Assembly: GCA_963719515.1 (NCBI GenBank)
Contig: CAVRCJ010000001.1
Coordinates: forward strand, 1 to 64,000
Reading direction: 5' to 3'
Origin: an uncultured cyanobacterium
Lineage (GTDB): Bacteria; Cyanobacteriota; Cyanobacteriia; CAKZMO01
DNA: 64,000 nt
Shown in pieces: positions 1-63,951 of this stretch. Within the stretch, counting starts at the first letter, position 1; every line of letters begins with the position of its first letter. Both the position numbers and the translations under genes were made by a program. The notes under the pieces were generated by a model, which worked only from the letters and a program-made list of their open reading frames with translations, was not told the DNA's origin and searched no databases.

Positions 1-1158
1 GAGCAAACGGTTACCATGACCCGATGGCTAGATATGCTTCGGGCACAGTACAACTGGTTGCTGGCTGAGCGCTTCGACTGGTGGGAGATGAACCGCTGTT
101 CGGTCAACGCCTGCCCACTCACCTGTAGCCTTGCGCCACTCAAAGATAATCCTAATTACTACAGCCAGAAGGCTAGCCTAGTACCTCTCAAGCGAGAGCG
201 GCCCTGGTACAAAGATTTGCATTCACAAGCGCTTCAGGAGGTGACGAAGCAGGTAAAGCAGACGTTCGAGCGTTTCATCAAAGGTGATAAAAACGGTAAG
301 CGTAGCGGCAAGCCTCGGTTCAAAGGCGCGGGGCGCTACAGGACGTTCACGTTCCCGCAGATGAAACCTGACTGCATCGATGGAAGTCGTATTACCCTGC
401 CTAAGATTGGCCAGGTGAAGCTAATCCTTCATCGCCCGATACCTGATGGGTTTACTGTCAAAACGGCCAAGGTGACTCGCAAAGCAGATGGTTGGTATGT
501 GAGCCTGTTACTGGAAAACAATGCCGTTCCGATGCTTACTCCGGATGTTGATAGGGCTAAGTCTGTCGGTGTTGACGTTGGGCTGAAGGATTTCTTGGTT
601 ACCAGTGACGGTGAGAGCGTTCCTATCCCTCAGTTCTTTCGACGCTCAGAGCGGCAGCTATCCAAGCTGCAGCGGCAGCTATCGAGACAGAAGAAGGGCT
701 CTAACCGCTGGCGTAAGCAGGTGAATCGCATCGCCAAACTGCATCTGAAAATATCGCGTCAGCGTCGTGATTTCTTTTCTAAGGTGTGGGATTGGCTGTT
801 CTCAAAGTACGATGTTGTCGCTCATGAAAAGCTCAACATCAAAGGACTTGCTCGAACCAGACTGGCAAAGTCAATCGCTGATGCCGCATGGGGTACATTC
901 TTGGAGATAGGCTCTTTCAAAGCCGCGAAAGCTGGAAAGATGACCATCGCTGAGAACCCACGCGGAACCAGCATTGATTGCTCGGGTTGTGGTGAGCGGG
1001 TACCAAAGACGCTGGCCGATCGGGTCCATAGTTGCCCGTCATGCGGCTTAACGATCTGTCGCGACCACAACGCGGCTATCAACCTATTGAATAGGGCTGT
1101 GGGACATCAAGCCCTTAATCTCTCGGGAAATGTCTCAGCAGTAGCTGGGAGTCACTGA
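1..1158 (+). CDS. tnpB: TnpB RNA-guided endonuclease (5' truncated by window edge)
   Basis: RuvC-I GVDVGL, RuvC-II VAHEKL, CxxC..CxxC zinc finger, RuvC-III RDHNAA; all three acidic residues present. Confidence 0.95.
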   Translation, partial: EQTVTMTRWLDMLRAQYNWLLAERFDWWEMNRCSVNACPLTCSLAPLKDNPNYYSQKASLVPLKRERPWYKDLHSQALQEVTKQVKQTFERFIKGDKNGKRSGKPRFKGAGRYRTFTFPQMKPDCIDGSRITLPKIGQVKLILHRPIPDGFTVKTAKVTRKADGWYVSLLLENNAVPMLTPDVDRAKSVGVDVGLKDFLVTSDGESVPIPQFFRRSERQLSKLQRQLSRQKKGSNRWRKQVNRIAKLHLKISRQRRDFFSKVWDWLFSKYDVVAHEKLNIKGLARTRLAKSIADAAWGTFLEIGSFKAAKAGKMTIAENPRGTSIDCSGCGERVPKTLADRVHSCPSCGLTICRDHNAAINLLNRAVGHQALNLSGNVSAVAGSH

Positions 1159-1204
1159 GGAAGCCCGCGCTGTATGCGTAGCATCAGCGTCGGGAGGATG
1201 TCAC
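1..1204 (+). mobile_element. IS200/IS605-family tnpB element, copy 1 (left end outside window)
   Basis: tnpB ORF followed by subterminal hairpin GAAG-CCCGCGCTGTATGCGTAGCATCAGCGTCGGG; ends ...GATGTCAC at 1204, where identity with copy 2 stops. Confidence 0.93.
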
Positions 1205-7103: not shown

Positions 7104-7547
7104 GTGACATTGTCCCGACGCTCATCTTTGACAGATAAAGCGCGGGCTTCGGGGATCGCTCCCCTGCGATTTCCTGCTTTTTTTGGCCCTGTCTAGCCAC
7201 ACAGCGCGCCATGTAATCCCGATTAGATCCCATCCACAGGCCGTTTTTGCGTCCAGGTGATGACCCACCCCAGCCGCCGAGTATTCGCTCTTTCACCTCA
7301 CATATCCTGATTCGCTGCACTGTTCACCAGCCATAGCTGTACGTCTGTGTCAGAACAGAAAGTCACCACCCATGTTGCCCCTCTAGGCGGTTTATCCGCG
7401 TTGGCAATGAAATTCTAGCATTTGTTCGTCTTGGCACTGCCCCCAACCCCTGCCTTCAGCATCAGATTAGGGGCGCACCTCGACTCACGCGATTGTCATC
7501 CCGACGCTGATGCTTTGCATACAGCGCGGGACTTCCCATCTAAAGTC
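7104..7547 (-). mobile_element. ORF-less IS200/IS605 mini-element (PATE-like); left boundary uncertain within 7539-7547
   Basis: Minus strand: left end AAGT-CCCGCGCTGTATGCAAAGCATCAGCGTCGGGATGACAATCGCG; right end GAAG-CCCGCGCTTTATCTGTCAAAGATGAGCGTCGGGACAATGTCAC; same end architecture as the tnpB copies. Confidence 0.82.
7412..7420 (-). promoter_or_regulatory. Extended -10 element inside the mini-element, facing its right end
   Basis: TGCTAGAAT on minus strand. Confidence 0.5.
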
Positions 7548-8134
7548 TGAAAGAGGAAAGACACTTTGTCTTCTTTGCCAAAGGCAACGCGATCGCCCGG
7601 CCGCAGTCGGTGCCGACTGCCAACTGCTACCGGTAAATTGTTGACGTAGGTTCCGTTAGAGCTACCCGTATCTTCAACGTAGTAAGCTTCTTCCTCCACA
7701 AGGATATCGGCATGGACGCGTGAGACGACCTCAGAGTGGGGAAAGCCGGAAATATCTATATCGGGGGGAACGCGGTCGTTGGGTTTCCCGATATGAATAA
7801 GGGCCTGATTGGCTGGCAGTTCAATAATGGTGTTTGTTGCGATGTGCTGCAGGTGGACCCGCTGCGGCTGGGGTTGAGAGGACGCCATTTCCTGAGCGAC
7901 ATTGTCTTCGTCTAGCGCGGCAAAGCCAACGTCTGCGCGCTCGTCTAGCACCTCAAAAGCAGGCTTAACCGCATCGCCGAGCTGCGCGCCACACTGGCCG
8001 CAAAAGCCAGCGCCGGCTCGAATATCTGCCCCACAGCTCGGGCAATTTACTATTGCAGGAAGGGGACTATAGCACCGGCTACACTGCGCCACTTCACCTG
8101 AGTTAGGGTGCGCGCAGTTGGGGCAGGTCACCAT
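7496..8134 (-). CDS. fraH: FraH-like double zinc-ribbon plus FHA protein; last ~16 codons come from the mini-element left end
   Basis: CPNC..CSRC..CPSC..CGQC; IHIGKPNDRVPPDID..VVSRVHA..SSNGTY; downstream of pgl. Confidence 0.78.
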   Translation of the reverse strand: MVTCPNCAHPNSGEVAQCSRCYSPLPAIVNCPSCGADIRAGAGFCGQCGAQLGDAVKPAFEVLDERADVGFAALDEDNVAQEMASSQPQPQRVHLQHIATNTIIELPANQALIHIGKPNDRVPPDIDISGFPHSEVVSRVHADILVEEEAYYVEDTGSSNGTYVNNLPVAVGSRHRLRPGDRVAFGKEDKVSFLFQTLDGKSRAVCKASASG

Positions 8135-23382: not shown

Positions 23383-23514
23383 CCGTCAGTGGTAGGCTGC
23401 CCTGGCCAGCGTCAGGTGCTGCCGCTGCCGCCTGAGTTTGTGATGCTGCAAGATGGCCACGATAAGTAAGACTGCGAGAATGCGGTAGCCAAGCAATGGT
23501 TGCTGAATCATGGC
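23383..23514 (+). pseudogene. Transposase fragment (ISNCY-like)
   Basis: VLPLPPEFVMLQDGHDK*DCENAVAKQWL resembles the PEF..QDG..KQDCE.AA.KRW motif; internal TAA at 23467. Confidence 0.55.
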
Positions 23515-23688
23515 GTACATCACACGGCGGTGATCGTCTGGGTGAAGCAAGTTAGCGAACGACTCCCCGATGCTTACGACCCTGAAACAACCCTAGAGGC
23601 CGGCGAACTCGACGAATTGAAGACCCTTGTAGGCTCAAAAAAAAAATTTGGCTGTGGACAGCCGTTGACCACTTCAAAGAGATTTTAG

Positions 23689-24080
23689 CTACTAGACAGG
23701 AAGCCCCGCGCTCTACCCGTCAGGGTGAGCGTCGGGATGAGAGTCGCGCTAGCCGAAGTGCGCCCGCAAAATGATGCACAGCGGATAGTGCGCTCAGCGC
23801 TGAGGCTAGCAGTTGGTATGATAGAGATAGCAAGGTGATACACCCCGCAAAGAGTGTGACGGGCCCGTAGGCGAAAGCTGCAAGTCACCCGTTCCTCAGT
23901 TTGCAAATGTATCTGCGACACATAGTGCGTATCCTCCCTCGCGGAGATGAAAATTCAAAACTCTGCCGTGGGGCATCAGGCGGAGTATAAACCTATCTCA
24001 GGATATGTCTCGGCAATAGCTGGGAGTCACTGAGGAAGCCCGCGCTGTACAGCTTGCTGTCAGCGTCGGGAGGATGTCAC
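23689..24080 (+). mobile_element. ORF-less IS200/IS605 mini-element (392 bp) inserted after TTTAG without target duplication
   Basis: First ~60 bp nearly identical to left end of tnpB copy 2; last ~110 bp homologous to its right end; removal restores the IS1 frame (ATT TTA G|GC TGG GTA). Confidence 0.92.
23814..23822 (+). promoter_or_regulatory. Extended -10 element inside the mini-element
   Basis: TGGTATGAT. Confidence 0.55.
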
Positions 24081-24096
24081 GCTGGGTACTGGGTGA
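23829..24096 (+). ncRNA. Candidate stand-alone omegaRNA; guide GCTGGGTACTGGGTGA
   Basis: Promoter upstream; 3' scaffold homologous to the tnpB-copy scaffold with compensatory changes; no credible ORF. Confidence 0.6.
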
Positions 24097-24390
24097 CCGT
24101 AGTGCCGAGACCTTTGCCTGCTCTGGCATATTGTGGCTTCCTGGAACTACTACTTCTACGTCATGGATGGCTGGTCGGTGTATCCCGGCTTCATCCCGAA
24201 GAGCGCTCAGATTGTCTGCAAGACATCCATGACCCGAGTGGAAGGCGAGAACACTCGACTGCGGCACGAGTTGGCGCGACTGCATCGCAAAACGCTCTGC
24301 TATTCAAAGTCCGTGGATATGCTGGCGCACTCCGTTTGTTTGTTCATCCACATCTCAAGTTTGGCGAGGTCCCTCTACCCGTAATATTGA

Positions 24391-25588
24391 TAAGTACGGC
24401 ATCAGAATTAAACGTAGCGGTGGGTGTATGCTGAAGAGCCGCCTACTGTAGGTCGTTGTAGCGATGTCAACGCCAATCTTACGAGTCGAGCTGAGTGTAG
24501 AAGAAGATGTTACGCTGCAAGCGCTGCGAGTGGCAGCAGGTGTGCCTCAGCGGACAAAAGACCGGGCTGAGGTACTGCGCCTGAGCCACCGAGGATGGAC
24601 GCCAGCCCAGATAGGGGAGTATCTAGGCTGGCGAGTGGCCACTGCCCGCAAGGCCATTCATCGGTGGCAGTAGGACGGACTGTATGGGCTGTGGGATAGT
24701 CCTCGCTCAGGGCGTCGGCCAGCGTACTCGGTAGTAGTGATGGCAGCACTGGAGGAGTACATGGCGGCTGAAGAGCTCACCGTCAATAGTCCTCGGTTAG
24801 CCCTGCATCTTGCTGAGGTGCATGGCGTTTACCTAAGCGGAGGTCACCTGAGGCGATTACTCAAAAAAAAGATATCGATGGAAACGCACTCGTCACAGCC
24901 ATCGCCGCCGTCAGGAACCAGTGCTACGGGTTCAGAAACAGGCTGAGTTGGCCCTGCTGCAACGGGCTGCTGTTGATGGGCACATTCGGCTGAAGTACCT
25001 TGATGAGTCGAGCTTCGATAGCTGGAGTCCAGTCAGCTACAGCTGGTCATTGATGGGGACTCAGAAACGCCAGGAGCAGACACAAAAGCGTACTCGGTGG
25101 TTGAGTATCCTAGGCTTGTGGGAACCAGGAGGCGAGATGAGCTATGGCCTAGCCCTTGGCAGCATCACTAGCGCCACTTACATCAGCTTCATGGACTGGC
25201 AGGTAAGCCTTGCCAACCGGCTGTTGCAGCGTACTGGCATTGCTACCGTTGTTGTCCAAGACAATGCCTCCATCCATACCAGCAAGGCAGTCCGACAGCG
25301 TCTATCAATATGGCATGCTCAAGGCCTAGATTTCTTCCATCTGCCGCCCTATTGCTCTGAGATGAATCTGATTGAGACCGAGTGGCATCAGCTCAAAGCC
25401 CATGAGATTAGAGGTGCGATGAGTAAAGATTCCTATGACCTAGCTATGGGCGTGATTGCTGCACTCAAAATCCGAGCTGCGAAAGCTGGCTATGCTCTTA
25501 AGCGCTTTAGTTTCGCTTCCCGTCGTCTAGCTAATCCAAAATTCCTTACAACCTAGCAGGACTACGTTCATTTATGACCACCTACTTA
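24391..25588 (+). mobile_element. IS630-family element (coordinates include flanking TA duplication)
   Basis: Imperfect TIRs TAAGTACGGCATCAGAATTAAACGTAG / revcomp TAAGTAGGTGGTCATAAATGAACGTAG; inserted in the IS1 3' end. Confidence 0.85.
24464..25556 (+). pseudogene. IS630 transposase (HTH orfA, -1 frameshift, DDE orfB) with premature TAG at 24671-24673
   Basis: A8 slip tract 24863-24870 leading to YRWKRTRHSH; YLDES, VQDNASIH, LPPYCSEMNLIE.EW. Confidence 0.85.
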
Positions 25589-62138: not shown

Positions 62139-62300
62139 CTGCATAGTTCCAATGGTGACATCCTCCCGACGCTGATGCTACGCATACAGCGCGGGCTTCC
62201 TCAGTGACTCCCAGCTACTGCTGAGACATTTCCTGAGAGATTAAGGGCTTGATGTCCCACAGCCCTATTCAATAGGTTGATAGCCGCGTTGTGGTCGCGA
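62139..62300 (-). ncRNA. Predicted omegaRNA of copy 2; guide CATTGGAACTATGCAG; 5' end approximate
   Basis: Same scaffold as copy 1, different flank. Confidence 0.7.
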
Positions 62301-63397
62301 CAGATCGTTAAGCCGCATGACGGGCAACTATGGACCCGATCGGCCAGCGTCTTTGGTACCCGCTCACCACAACCCGAGCAATCAATGCTGGTTCCGCGTG
62401 GGTTCTCAGCGATGGTCATCTTTCCAGCTTTCGCGGCTTTGAAAGAGCCTATCTCCAAGAATGTACCCCATGCGGCATCAGCGATTGACTTTGCCAGTCT
62501 GGTTCGAGCAAGTCCTTTGATGTTGAGCTTTTCATGAGCGACAACATCGTACTTTGAGAACAGCCAATCCCACACCTTAGAAAAGAAATCACGACGCTGA
62601 CGCGATATCTTTAGGTGTAGTTTGGCGATGCGATTCACCTGCTTACGCCAGCGGTTAGAGCCCTTCTTCTGTCTCGATAGCTGCCGCTGCAGCTTGGATA
62701 GCTGCCGCTCTGAGCGTCGAAAGAACTGAGGGATAGGAACGCTCTCACCGTCACTGGTAACCAAGAAATCCTTCAGCCCAACGTCAACACCGACAGACTT
62801 AGCCCTATCGACATCCGGAGTAAGCATCGGAACGGCATTGTTTTCCAGTAACAGGCTCACATACCAACCATCTGCTTTGCGAGTCACCTTGGCCGTTTTG
62901 ACAGTAAACCCATCAGGTATCGGGCGATGAAGGATTAGCTTCACCTGACCAATCTTAGGCAGGGTAATACGACTTCCATCGATGCAGTCAGGTTTCATCT
63001 GCGGGAACGTGAACGTCCTGTAGCGCCCCGCGCCTTTGAACCGAGGCTTGCCGCTACGCTTACCATTCCTATCACCTTTGATGAAACGCTCGAACGTCTG
63101 CTTTACCTGCTTCGTCACCTCCTGAAGCGCTTGTGAGTGCAAATCCTTGTACCAGGGTCGCTCTCGCTTGAGAGGTACTAGGCTAGCCTTCTGGCTGTAG
63201 TAATTAGGATTATCTTTGAGTGGCGCAAGGCTACAGGTGAGTGGGCAGGCGTTGACCGAACAGCGGTTCATCTCCCACCAGTCGAAGCGCTCAGCCAGCA
63301 ACCAGTTGTACTGTGCCCGAAGCATATCTAGCCATCGGGTCATGGTAACCGTTTGCTCAGCCGCTGGACGCAACTTGTACTGATAAGTGACTTTCAT
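62201..63397 (-). CDS. tnpB: TnpB RNA-guided endonuclease (398 aa from MKVTYQYKLRP)
   Basis: Y.YKLRP N-terminus; RuvC D/E/D and zinc finger intact; one K/R difference from copy 1 over the shared part. Confidence 0.95.
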   Translation of the reverse strand: MKVTYQYKLRPAAEQTVTMTRWLDMLRAQYNWLLAERFDWWEMNRCSVNACPLTCSLAPLKDNPNYYSQKASLVPLKRERPWYKDLHSQALQEVTKQVKQTFERFIKGDRNGKRSGKPRFKGAGRYRTFTFPQMKPDCIDGSRITLPKIGQVKLILHRPIPDGFTVKTAKVTRKADGWYVSLLLENNAVPMLTPDVDRAKSVGVDVGLKDFLVTSDGESVPIPQFFRRSERQLSKLQRQLSRQKKGSNRWRKQVNRIAKLHLKISRQRRDFFSKVWDWLFSKYDVVAHEKLNIKGLARTRLAKSIADAAWGTFLEIGSFKAAKAGKMTIAENPRGTSIDCSGCGERVPKTLADRVHSCPSCGLTICRDHNAAINLLNRAVGHQALNLSGNVSAVAGSH

Positions 63398-63430
63398 GCA
63401 ATAATGATAGCATATTGACATCAGAATGAC

Positions 63431-63613
63431 ATGCAGCAAATAACTATTAGAGCCGCTGACAGAGAAAAGCAGCATCTTGACAAGTATTGTGAGATGACTA
63501 AAAGAACTATCAACGATGTCCTTAGGGAGTACATCCGAAGTTTGGCCGTCTCCGGGGCATTGAGCCCCATCGACGACCGCGACTCTCATCCCGACGCTCA
63601 CCCTGACGGGTAG
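63431..63613 (+). CDS. Small CopG/ribbon-helix-helix protein, divergent from tnpB
   Basis: QITIR strand then EKQHLDKYC..RTINDVLREYIRSL helices. Confidence 0.7.
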   Translation: MQQITIRAADREKQHLDKYCEMTKRTINDVLREYIRSLAVSGALSPIDDRDSHPDAHPDG

Positions 63614-63951
63614 AGCGCGGGGCTTCCCGTCTAGTAGCTAAAGCGGCCTCTCAGGAAATACACGCAATACGTCGGCGTGCTGCGGCATCTTTATGCGAAA
63701 TTCAAACGTATTTAAAGTCGTCCCCGAGAGAATTTTGACCTAGCCATCGATGAGCAGCACTAGACGCTCCTACACCATACAAGATGTAGAAAAGCCCAAC
63801 TCAGCCCAAGGGGCGATTAAGGCGAATAGTTAACTCTGTTACTTTTCGTTGCAGACGGTAGTCGTCAACAGTTTTCTGCAGGGTGCATCGGGCATGAGCT
63901 TGCAGACCACCCTGACTTGCAGCTACCGCTAACGATACACAAGAGAATCAC

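What the first reader, a model, noticed from the sequence alone, without database searches (positions are those of the whole stretch)
23684..24096. ORF-less IS605 mini-element that looks like a stand-alone omegaRNA gene whose guide matches IS1 transposase
Seen: a 392-bp element with the same left end as tnpB copy 2, no credible ORF, an internal TGGTATGAT, and a 3' scaffold homologous to the tnpB copies. Its changes preserve pairing (ATGC-GTA-GCAT becomes ACAGC-TT-GCTGT; TCTCAGC/GCTGGGA becomes TCTCGGC/GCTGGGA). It follows TTTAG, and removing it restores IS1 codons ILG|WVLGDR. Known: TnpB takes its guide from the right-end flank and cuts TAM+target sites, and its TAM matches the insertion motif. 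Inference: loaded in trans on TnpB from the full copies, this RNA would cut TTTAG+GCTGGGTACTGGGTGA, i.e. uninterrupted members of that IS1 family. That would give homing through, or suppression of, another multicopy transposon.
Basis: partly seen in the sequence, partly recalled or inferred. Interest (0 to 1): 0.85.

Follow-up and report, generated by a model that had tools for sequence, protein, structure and literature searches.

The report
Gene-less guide-RNA mini-transposon, 53 copies
This 392-base stretch is one of 53 near-identical copies of a protein-less miniature of a TnpB "jumping gene" that still carries the guide-RNA part; it happens to sit in the dead remains of another transposon, so it is a clean example of a known kind and not a weapon against that transposon.

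Summary
Window 23689-24080 is a 392-bp ORF-less IS200/IS605 element inserted after TTTAG. It keeps both ends of the tnpB elements in the window and splits an IS1-family transposase exactly at ILG|WVLGDR.

It is not a one-off. The genome holds 53 full-length copies at 96-100% identity, 14 of them identical to this one. All 53 follow TTAG and each has a different 3' flank. Its bases 178-342 are a decayed relic of the last 53 tnpB codons. The last ~120 nt keep the parent's RNA helices, and one helix has 5 of 8 pairs changed on both sides. A TGnTAnnnT box survives in two sister species. No RNA data exist.

So it is a PATE-type "stand-alone omegaRNA" element, a kind already in print (Meers 2023; Altae-Tran 2023).

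The IS1 reading fails in this genome. The host IS1 is a single relic, 5'-truncated and frameshifted. No other TTAG+target site exists within 3 mismatches. None of the other 52 copies has this 3' flank, which occurs only once in the genome. Vacant IS1 copies with a perfect TTTAG+25-nt match do exist, but in 2 of 400 other cyanobacterial genomes.

This scan has found the same kind of element before on other DNA.

The parts
23684..23688 (+). TTTAG: insertion motif of the family and presumed TAM
   Evidence: All 53 mini copies follow TTAG: 47 TTTAG, 3 GTTAG, 3 CTTAG. Of 18 full-length left ends, 13 follow TTTAG, 3 GTTAG, 1 CTTAG, and 1 lies at a contig edge.
23689..24080 (+). The 392-bp ORF-less mini-element (PATE/MITE of an IS200/IS605 family)
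   Evidence: 53 full-length copies in the genome at 96.4-100% identity; 14 are identical to this one and there are 33 distinct sequences.
23705..23736 (+). Left-end imperfect palindrome (CCCGCGCTCTACCC / GTCA / GGGTGAGCGTCGGG)
   Evidence: Read directly. It lies within the 68 nt shared with the tnpB elements. Variation among the 53 copies here includes loop bases 32-33, alongside stem positions.
23814..23822 (+). TGGTATGAT, an extended -10-like box; the inferred start of the RNA is near 23829
   Evidence: Sister-species copies read TGCTATACT (G002) and TGGTATAAT (G004). Two own-genome variants read TATAAT and TATGCT. There is no -35 box, and the strict scan does not call it.
23866..24030 (+). 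Decayed relic of the last 53 codons of tnpB, with a stop inside
   Evidence: blastx: mini 178-342 against TnpB residues 346-398, 42% identity, E 9.4e-6 against a database of 15 proteins.
23960..23986 (+). Helix 1, with loop GUGGGGCAUCA
   Evidence: 5 of 8 pairs are changed on both sides between the mini and tnpB lineages.
23972..23977 (+). Loop GGCAUC, proposed pseudoknot partner of the tail GAUGUC (24073-24078)
   Evidence: 6 proposed pairs: 4 never vary, 1 varies A-U/G-U, 1 is unpaired in 2 of 5 rows. The geometry resembles the ISDra2 pseudoknot, -5..-3 with -103..-105 (PMC10097598, passage read). Inference.
23997..24034 (+). Helices 3 and 4 (CUCAGGA.../...UCACUGAG around UCUCGGC-AAUA-GCUGGGA)
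   Evidence: Helix 3: 7 of 7 pairs invariant. Helix 4: A-U becomes G-U against the tnpB copies, and U-G becomes C-G in 9 of the 53 copies.
24039..24070 (+). Right-end hairpin (CCCGCGCUG...CAGCGUCGGG with one bulged U), apex ACAGC-UU-GCUGU
   Evidence: The apex differs but always pairs in the tnpB copies (AUGC-GUA-GCAU) and in other families of the genome.
24081..24096 (+). 3' flank that would be read as the guide (GCTGGGTACTGGGTGA)
   Evidence: It occurs once in the genome. No TTAG site elsewhere is within 3 mismatches.
23512..23688 (+). IS1-family relic, left part
   Evidence: 81% identical to the IS1 of G101 from here on. The first ~330 bp of that IS1 have no counterpart, and the relic shows 2-nt and 3-nt deletions relative to it.
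24081..24373 (+). IS1-family relic, right part (DDE domain)
   Evidence: Pfam PF03400, E 6.6e-13. 80% identical to the G101 IS1, with a 1-nt deletion near 24119 that shifts the frame.
62155..63637 (-). Full 1483-bp tnpB element (copy 2), after TTTAG at 63642-63638; tnpB CDS 62201-63397
   Evidence: Pfam OrfB_IS605, Cas12f1-like_TNB and HTH_OrfB_IS605. ISDra2 TnpB structures match at E 1.3e-43. 17 uninterrupted copies at 98-100% identity in the genome.
1..1204 (+). tnpB element copy 1, cut by the start of the contig
   Evidence: 99% inverted repeat of copy 2 over 1205 nt. TnpB residues 14-398 at 100% identity.

Best explanation
It is a non-autonomous, protein-less derivative (PATE/MITE) of an IS200/IS605-family element.

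Shown:
- It keeps the left and right ends of the family, with their imperfect palindromes.
- It inserts after (T)TTAG without a target duplication.
- It has spread to 53 near-identical copies.
- Three elements with related ends carry an intact Y1 transposase gene (tnpA).
- Its last ~215 nt are what is left of the tnpB 3' end plus the right end, which is the place where TnpB elements encode their omegaRNA.
- The helices of the last ~120 nt are kept through compensatory changes.

Inferred:
- TnpA from the three autonomous copies moves it in trans.
- An RNA starts about 7 nt after the TGGTATGAT box (near 23829), runs through the scaffold and reads the first ~16 nt of whatever flank follows.
- That RNA loads in trans onto TnpB from the 17 intact sister genes.
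- Its use is the ordinary one: to re-cut this copy's own emptied donor site (TTTAG+flank), so that repair from a sister chromosome puts the element back.

The IS1 location is incidental. The mini landed on a TTTAG inside a conserved motif of an already broken IS1.
For: Copy number, identity and TTAG specificity.

Shared ends and three tnpA+tnpB elements with related ends and open tnpA frames (C10:312171-313970, C1:303800-305600, C5:98448-100227).

tnpB relic.

Structure:
- 39 proposed pairs are 93.8% paired, against 32-46% when partners are slid.
- 8 pairs change on both sides, 5 of them in helix 1, which lies outside the terminal hairpin that TnpA needs.
- G-U pairs such as UG at columns 21/39 and 67/80 fit RNA better than DNA.

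The -10-like box is kept as TATGAT, TATACT and TATAAT in three species.

17 uninterrupted TnpB genes at 98-100% identity. They are homologous to ISDra2 TnpB, with the GVDVG, HEKLN and RDHNAA motifs aligned.

Among the 53 copies, 31 of 38 variable columns lie in bases 1-215 and 7 in 216-392.

Printed precedent:
- Stand-alone omegaRNAs are mobilised and 'shown to function in trans' (PMC10691335, passages read).
Against: - No transcript has been seen.
- The box has no -35 partner, and a strict promoter scan does not call it.
- The covariation rests on 5 sequences from about 3 lineages, and the structure was derived from these same sequences.
- The scaffold upstream of helix 1 is barely alignable with that of the tnpB copies, so TnpB compatibility is not assured.
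- The lower variability of the 3' part is significant only with a cut chosen after looking: p 0.0005 at base 215, but 0.03 at 257 and 0.10 at 271.
- Near-identity of the copies may only reflect a recent burst.
- Rfam has no matching family for either the mini or the full element.
- The TAM is inferred from the insertion motif and was not tested.
Confidence: 0.65

Rival explanations
1. One reading: this copy works as a trans-acting guide against the IS1 family. It would either home into uninterrupted IS1 copies or suppress them.
For: The flank is a conserved IS1 motif. G018 (2 sites) and G101 (1 site) carry vacant IS1 copies with TTTAG plus an identical 25-nt stretch. The genome has no IS1 copy carrying the site, which is what suppression would also leave.
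Against: - The 16-nt flank that an IS1 copy filled at this site would carry occurs once in the genome, and the 53 copies all have different 3' flanks, so IS1 has not been targeted repeatedly.
- No second occupied IS1 exists, so there is no sign of homing.
- The host IS1 is 5'-truncated and frameshifted, while the mini copy is identical to the 14-copy master sequence. This fits a recent landing in an old wreck.
- IS1-family DNA is nearly absent here: 4 PF03400 matches, namely this relic, one different intact gene and two pieces of a broken one.
- The same-genus genomes G001-G004 show no match to this IS1.
Confidence: 0.04
2. A pure DNA parasite. The element is moved by TnpA, but its RNA is not made or not used. 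The kept helices reflect recent descent and the needs of single-stranded DNA recognition.
For: No RNA data exist. There is no -35 box. The copies are so alike that selection is hard to read. The right-end hairpin is needed by TnpA anyway.
Against: - Helix 1 lies 95-121 nt inside the right end, beyond what TnpA is known to need, yet it changed 5 of 8 pairs on both sides after coding was lost.
- G-U pairs are tolerated.
- The -10-like box keeps the TAnnnT form in three species and in 2 variant copies.
- The deletion that made the mini removed nearly all of tnpB but kept exactly the omegaRNA-coding end.
Confidence: 0.25
3. The RNA is made but serves another end. For example, it could compete with the tnpB-linked omegaRNAs for TnpB (a parasite of the parent element), or its extra 5' ~130 nt could carry a separate function.
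For: 53 minis stand against 17 intact tnpB genes. The predicted RNA is about 250 nt, roughly twice the conserved ~120-nt scaffold. Bases 216-297 show no variation among the 53 copies. Earlier notes of this scan report 5' leader domains on similar elements; these are leads only.
Against: Nothing here points to a specific second function. The 5' half shows no match outside the genus and is explained as a tnpB relic.
Confidence: 0.06

Closest known systems
PATEs (palindrome-associated transposable elements) of IS200/IS605, including the PATE-like elements of Geobacillus stearothermophilus (Meers et al. 2023 preprint, PMC10055086, passages read; the term is cited there from the Haloquadratum work, PMC3119063, seen only in the search listing)
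   Same: No protein gene. Parent-type left and right ends with subterminal palindromes. Motif-specific insertion without duplication. Many copies. An omegaRNA-coding right part that would need TnpB from other elements.
   Different: Another host (a cyanobacterium) and another sequence family. It has a high copy number (53) and its own extended -10-like box kept across three species. Nothing differs in kind.
Stand-alone omegaRNAs of OMEGA systems (summarised in Altae-Tran et al. 2023, PMC10691335, passages read; the original 2021 Science paper is not held and is recalled only)
   Same: A mobilised guide-RNA locus without an effector or transposase, in the same genome as effector-bearing copies.
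   Different: Function in trans was shown there by experiment. Here it is inferred from sequence only.
ISDra2 TnpB-omegaRNA (Karvelis et al. 2021, PMC8612924, abstract start in the search listing; Nakagawa et al. 2023, PMC10097598, passages read)
   Same: The TnpB is homologous (E 1.3e-43). The guide RNA is encoded at the tnpB 3' end and right end. The scaffold is about 116-120 nt. A proposed pseudoknot joins the bases just 5' of the guide to a loop about 100 nt upstream.
   Different: The insertion motif is TTTAG, not TTGAT (the ISDra2 motif is recalled). There is no sequence similarity between the RNAs. The pseudoknot here is an inference.
Nested IS605-type insertion in a dead mobile element of the same genome
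   Same: A guide that points at a transposon family with no sister copy left to cut.
   Different: A different locus and a full tnpB element. Not re-examined here.

Membership tests
PATE / MITE of IS200/IS605 | No protein-coding gene inside | tested here: met
   The only ORF of 40 aa or more lying mainly within the element is a 78-aa minus-strand GTG frame with no Pfam match. It is broken by indels in the G002 copy.
PATE / MITE of IS200/IS605 | Left and right ends with subterminal imperfect palindromes like those of protein-coding relatives | tested here: met
   Left end 94-96% and right end 85-88% identical to the tnpB elements. Both hairpins are present.
PATE / MITE of IS200/IS605 | Insertion 3' of a fixed short motif, with no target duplication | tested here: met
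   53 of 53 copies follow TTAG. The flanks rejoin into an unbroken IS1 reading frame, and the vacant form of the site is seen in G018 and G101.
PATE / MITE of IS200/IS605 | A Y1 transposase available in trans with matching ends | tested here: met
   14 PF01797 matches. 3 lie in elements whose ends match this family, all with open frames. Activity was not tested.
Stand-alone TnpB omegaRNA | Scaffold homologous to that of an effector-linked omegaRNA in the same genome | tested here: met
   tnpB 3' relic. Five helices shared with the tnpB copies, 93.8% of cells paired.
Stand-alone TnpB omegaRNA | It is transcribed | not testable with these tools
   No RNA run is on record for this DNA. There is only a conserved -10-like box.
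Stand-alone TnpB omegaRNA | It guides TnpB in trans to TAM+target | not testable with these tools
   Needs RIP-seq or an interference assay.
Rfam omegaRNA-type families | Match to a curated covariance model | tested here: not met
   0 matches at E up to 10 for the mini and for the full element. This speaks to the library, not to the function.
   The target 16-mer occurs once. No TTAG site is within 3 mismatches. There is no second copy of this IS1.

The most novel reading that the evidence does not exclude
Because the mini landed on a TTTAG inside the conserved WVLGDRS motif of an IS1 transposase, its guide matches TTTAG plus 25 nt of intact IS1 elements perfectly. Those elements sit in cyanobacteria of another family (G018, G101). 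If the RNA is made and loaded on TnpB, this cell would cut any such IS1 that arrives by gene transfer. It would then either destroy the carrier or copy the mini into the newcomer. More broadly, the 53 promoter-bearing minis would form a guide library three times larger than the set of TnpB genes that feeds it, with the mini living as a parasite on the parent's nuclease.
Probability: 0.06. Interest if true: 0.6.

Novelty: new member of a known kind. Interest (0 to 1): 0.25.

Why it matters
It adds a well-resolved cyanobacterial example to the known class of gene-less IS200/IS605 elements that keep only the ends and the guide RNA. One genome holds a three-tier family: 3 tnpA+tnpB copies, about 20 tnpB-only copies and 53 RNA-only copies.

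Helix-by-helix evidence shows that the guide scaffold stayed under constraint after the nuclease gene was lost. This makes it a convenient natural system for asking whether such minis depend on TnpB for retention.

It does not show one transposon policing another. The genome holds no target for that.

Tried and rejected
- Rfam at E up to 10 on the mini and on the full element: no family.
- Search for public RNA runs: no RNA holder listed, only 13 DNA metagenome runs.
- Laying the contigs of X1, X2, X3 and X5: no contig joins 23688 to 24081, so no vacant site was seen. The only joint is the full tnpB element.
- blastn of mini bases 70-330 with short words: no match in the genome other than the mini copies and the right-end tail. 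The relic was found only at protein level.
- Exact 22-mer scan of genome contigs: 0 hits, although genome search later found the site in G018 and G101. The two collections evidently differ.
- Census of self-targets over 97 right ends of this and related families: none has TTAG+16-mer elsewhere with 1 mismatch or fewer, and one has 2 mismatches. With 24,460 TTAG sites this is what chance predicts, so it says nothing about activity.
- The variability contrast along the element depends on where the cut is placed.
- The strict promoter scan calls nothing on the + strand.
- Searches were unfiltered versions and add nothing.
- Considered and dropped: that the poly-A frameshift in the IS1 relic is a decay mark. 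It lies at the slippery run where IS1 elements shift frame (recalled), so I do not count it. The truncation and the 1-nt deletion near 24119 are the decay marks.

Full report
**What is at the coordinates**

Window 23689-24080 is a 392-bp element. It begins right after TTTAG (23684-23688) and ends in ...GGATGTCAC.
- Its first 68 nt match the left end of the tnpB element on the minus strand (63637-63570) at 94%.
- Its last 85 nt match the right ends of both tnpB elements of the window (1121-1204 and 62238-62155) at 87-88%.
- The only ORF of 40 aa or more that lies mainly within it is a 78-aa GTG frame on the minus strand. That frame has no Pfam match, and two single-base indels in the orthologue of a sister species fall inside it.
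- The flanks read ...KKIWLWTAVDHFKEIL and WVLGDRSAETF, with one Gly codon split as G|GC.
- The downstream frame matches Pfam DDE_Tnp_IS1 at E 6.6e-13.

**It is one of many**

The assembly has 5.28 Mb in 21 contigs. blastn finds 53 full-length copies of the 392 bp at 96.4-100% identity.
- 14 copies are identical to the window copy, and there are 33 distinct sequences.
- All 53 follow TTAG: 47 TTTAG, 3 GTTAG and 3 CTTAG.
- All 53 have different 3' flanks, and the flank of the window copy occurs nowhere else in the genome.

The same genome holds:
- 17 uninterrupted TnpB genes at 98-100% identity to the window's, one more cut by the contig start, and a few broken ones, among 96 TnpB-like matches of many families;
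- 14 matches to the Y1 transposase family PF01797. Three of these sit, with open frames, in 1.8-kb tnpA+tnpB elements whose ends match this family: C10:312171-313970, C1:303800-305600 and C5:98448-100227.

The tnpB-only elements (1483 bp; window 62155-63637) and the autonomous ones use the same motif. Of 18 tnpB-only left ends, 13 follow TTTAG, 3 GTTAG, 1 CTTAG, and 1 lies at a contig edge. The 3 autonomous elements all follow TTTAG.

So the family has three tiers: autonomous, nuclease-only and RNA-only.

**What the mini is made of**

Its bases 70-177 match nothing else in the genome. This stretch holds TGGTATGAT at 23814-23822.

Bases 178-342 translate, through one stop, into a 55-residue string that aligns with the last 53 residues of TnpB. 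Identity is 42% and E is 9.4e-6 against a database of 15 TnpB proteins. The rest is the right end.

The deletion that created the mini thus removed nearly all of tnpB. It kept the segment where TnpB elements encode their omegaRNA.

**Is the RNA scaffold kept?**

I aligned the last ~135 nt of five sequences: the window mini, the G002 mini, the window tnpB element, the autonomous C10 element and a related 427-bp mini of another genus, G008. I then counted a five-helix structure on that alignment.
- 93.8% of 194 cells pair, against 32-46% when the 3' partners are slid by 1-3 columns.
- 8 of 39 pairs change on both sides.
- Five of those eight are in helix 1 (window 23960-23986). In the tnpB copies this helix lies inside coding sequence (NRAVGHQAL). 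It sits 95-121 nt from the right end, beyond the terminal hairpin that TnpA uses.

The loop of helix 1 (GGCAUC, 23972-23977) can pair with GAUGUC at -8 to -3 from the guide (24073-24078). In the ISDra2 structure a pseudoknot joins -5..-3 to -103..-105 of a 116-nt scaffold (PMC10097598, passage read). The geometry here is the same, but this pairing is an inference: 4 of its 6 pairs never vary.

Limits:
- There are only five sequences, from about three lineages.
- The structure was derived from these same sequences.
- The region upstream of helix 1 is hardly alignable between mini and tnpB.
- MFE folds of the 252-nt RNA are only modestly better than shuffles: z -2.08 for the mini and -2.49 for the tnpB end.

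**Is it transcribed?**

This is unknown. No RNA run holds this DNA.

The box has no -35 partner, and a strict scan does not call it. Still, the sister-species copies read TGCTATACT (G002) and TGGTATAAT (G004). Two variant copies in this genome read TATAAT and TATGCT. All keep the TAnnnT form.

Among the 53 copies, 31 of 38 variable columns fall in bases 1-215 and 7 in 216-392. The contrast is strong only with a cut chosen after looking: p 0.0005 at 215, 0.03 at 257 and 0.10 at 271.

**The IS1 claim**

The host IS1 is a wreck. Against the IS1 of G101 (80-81% identity) it lacks the first ~330 bp. It also has a 1-nt deletion near 24119 that shifts the DDE frame, and further small deletions.
- Neither flank has a second copy in the genome.
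- PF03400 finds only this relic, one intact but different IS1-family gene on C18, and two pieces of a broken one on C15.
- The C18 gene reads GAAATCATCGGG|TGCTACATCGGC at the homologous place, with no TAM and no target.
- The 16-nt target occurs once. No TTAG site elsewhere is within 3 mismatches of it.

So nothing in this cell can be cut by this guide except its own donor site after excision.

Among 401 genomes of the class (the window's own and 400 others), the 20-mer (1 mismatch or fewer) occurs in G000, G018 (2 sites) and G101 (1 site). All three foreign sites are vacant and read TTTAG|GCTGGGTACTGGGTGACCGTAGTGC.

More distant IS1 relatives, G015 and G032, have CCTAG or TCTAG and several mismatches. 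The same-genus genomes G001-G004 show no match to this IS1.

The mini copy carries no private mutation, while the IS1 is heavily decayed. This fits a recent landing in an old relic, though it does not prove the order of events.

**How it most likely works**

The steps, each marked as shown or inferred:
- TnpA from the three autonomous copies excises and inserts the mini at TTTAG (inferred from shared ends and motif).
- The mini makes a ~250-nt RNA from its own box (inferred).
- The last ~120 nt fold like the parent omegaRNA (supported).
- TnpB from sister elements binds the RNA and uses the flank as guide (inferred; the principle is in print).
- The target is the copy's own emptied site, which restores the element by repair. 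This is the model of PMC10055086 (passages read).

[quoted passage not shown] PMC10691335 (passages read) states that stand-alone omegaRNAs are mobilised and were shown to work in trans, with their biological role unknown.

The kind is therefore known, and this is a new, well-documented member. Earlier notes of this scan describe the same kind in this genome and in others. I used them as leads only.

**Verdict**
- Observation: confirmed.
- Interpretation: partly supported. It is a stand-alone guide-RNA element, but not an anti-IS1 device in this genome.
- Novelty: new member of a known kind.
- Interest: 0.25.

Noticed in passing
window 23529-23688, run X1; G000 C1:100235-100634: One low-depth contig (2.9x, 187 nt) of metagenome run X1 follows the IS1 left flank up to the same TTTAG. 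It then continues for 26 letters that match, 26 of 26, the start of a different ~340-400-bp element of this genome. That element has few copies (C1:100634, C6:1, C16:67478), and the C1:100634 copy, the exact match, also follows TTTAG. A related strain may therefore carry another TTTAG-seeking element at this very site.
   Followed up: partly
window 63431-63613 (+ strand), inside the tnpB element 62155-63637: A 60-aa ORF divergent from tnpB, where tnpA would sit. It gives weak ribbon-helix-helix hits below the Pfam cut-offs (DUF6290 E 0.0032, RHH_1 E 0.032).
   Followed up: partly
G000, 23 right ends listed (e.g. C3:567363, C10:332545, C4:87746): Two or three further element families share the right-end tail ...GAGCGTCGGGAGTATGTCAC. 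They have other hairpin apices that still pair (ATCT-AAA-AGAT, ATTC-GTA-GAAT) and a different upstream scaffold.
   Followed up: no
window 24464-25556: Just downstream of the IS1 relic lies a broken IS630/Tc1-like transposase. It consists of an HTH_23 piece (24464-24670), a stop, then a DDE_3 domain (24921-25553). The region is a small graveyard of mobile elements.
   Followed up: no
window 7459-7542 (minus strand): A stretch 74-80% similar to the mini's left end overlaps the 3' end of an FHA/zinc-ribbon gene (7496-8134). It is probably the left end of another IS605-type family.
   Followed up: no
the 53 mini copies, bases 2 and 10 of the element: There are two left-tip subtypes, CTACTAGACA (31 copies with T at base 2) and CGACTAGACG-like (22 with G). 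Both insert after TTTAG.
   Followed up: no
G008 C230:4496-4922 (locus L024): A 427-bp gene-less relative in another genus follows TTGAG, not TTTAG. It keeps helix 1 with further compensatory changes and has a different middle.
   Followed up: partly
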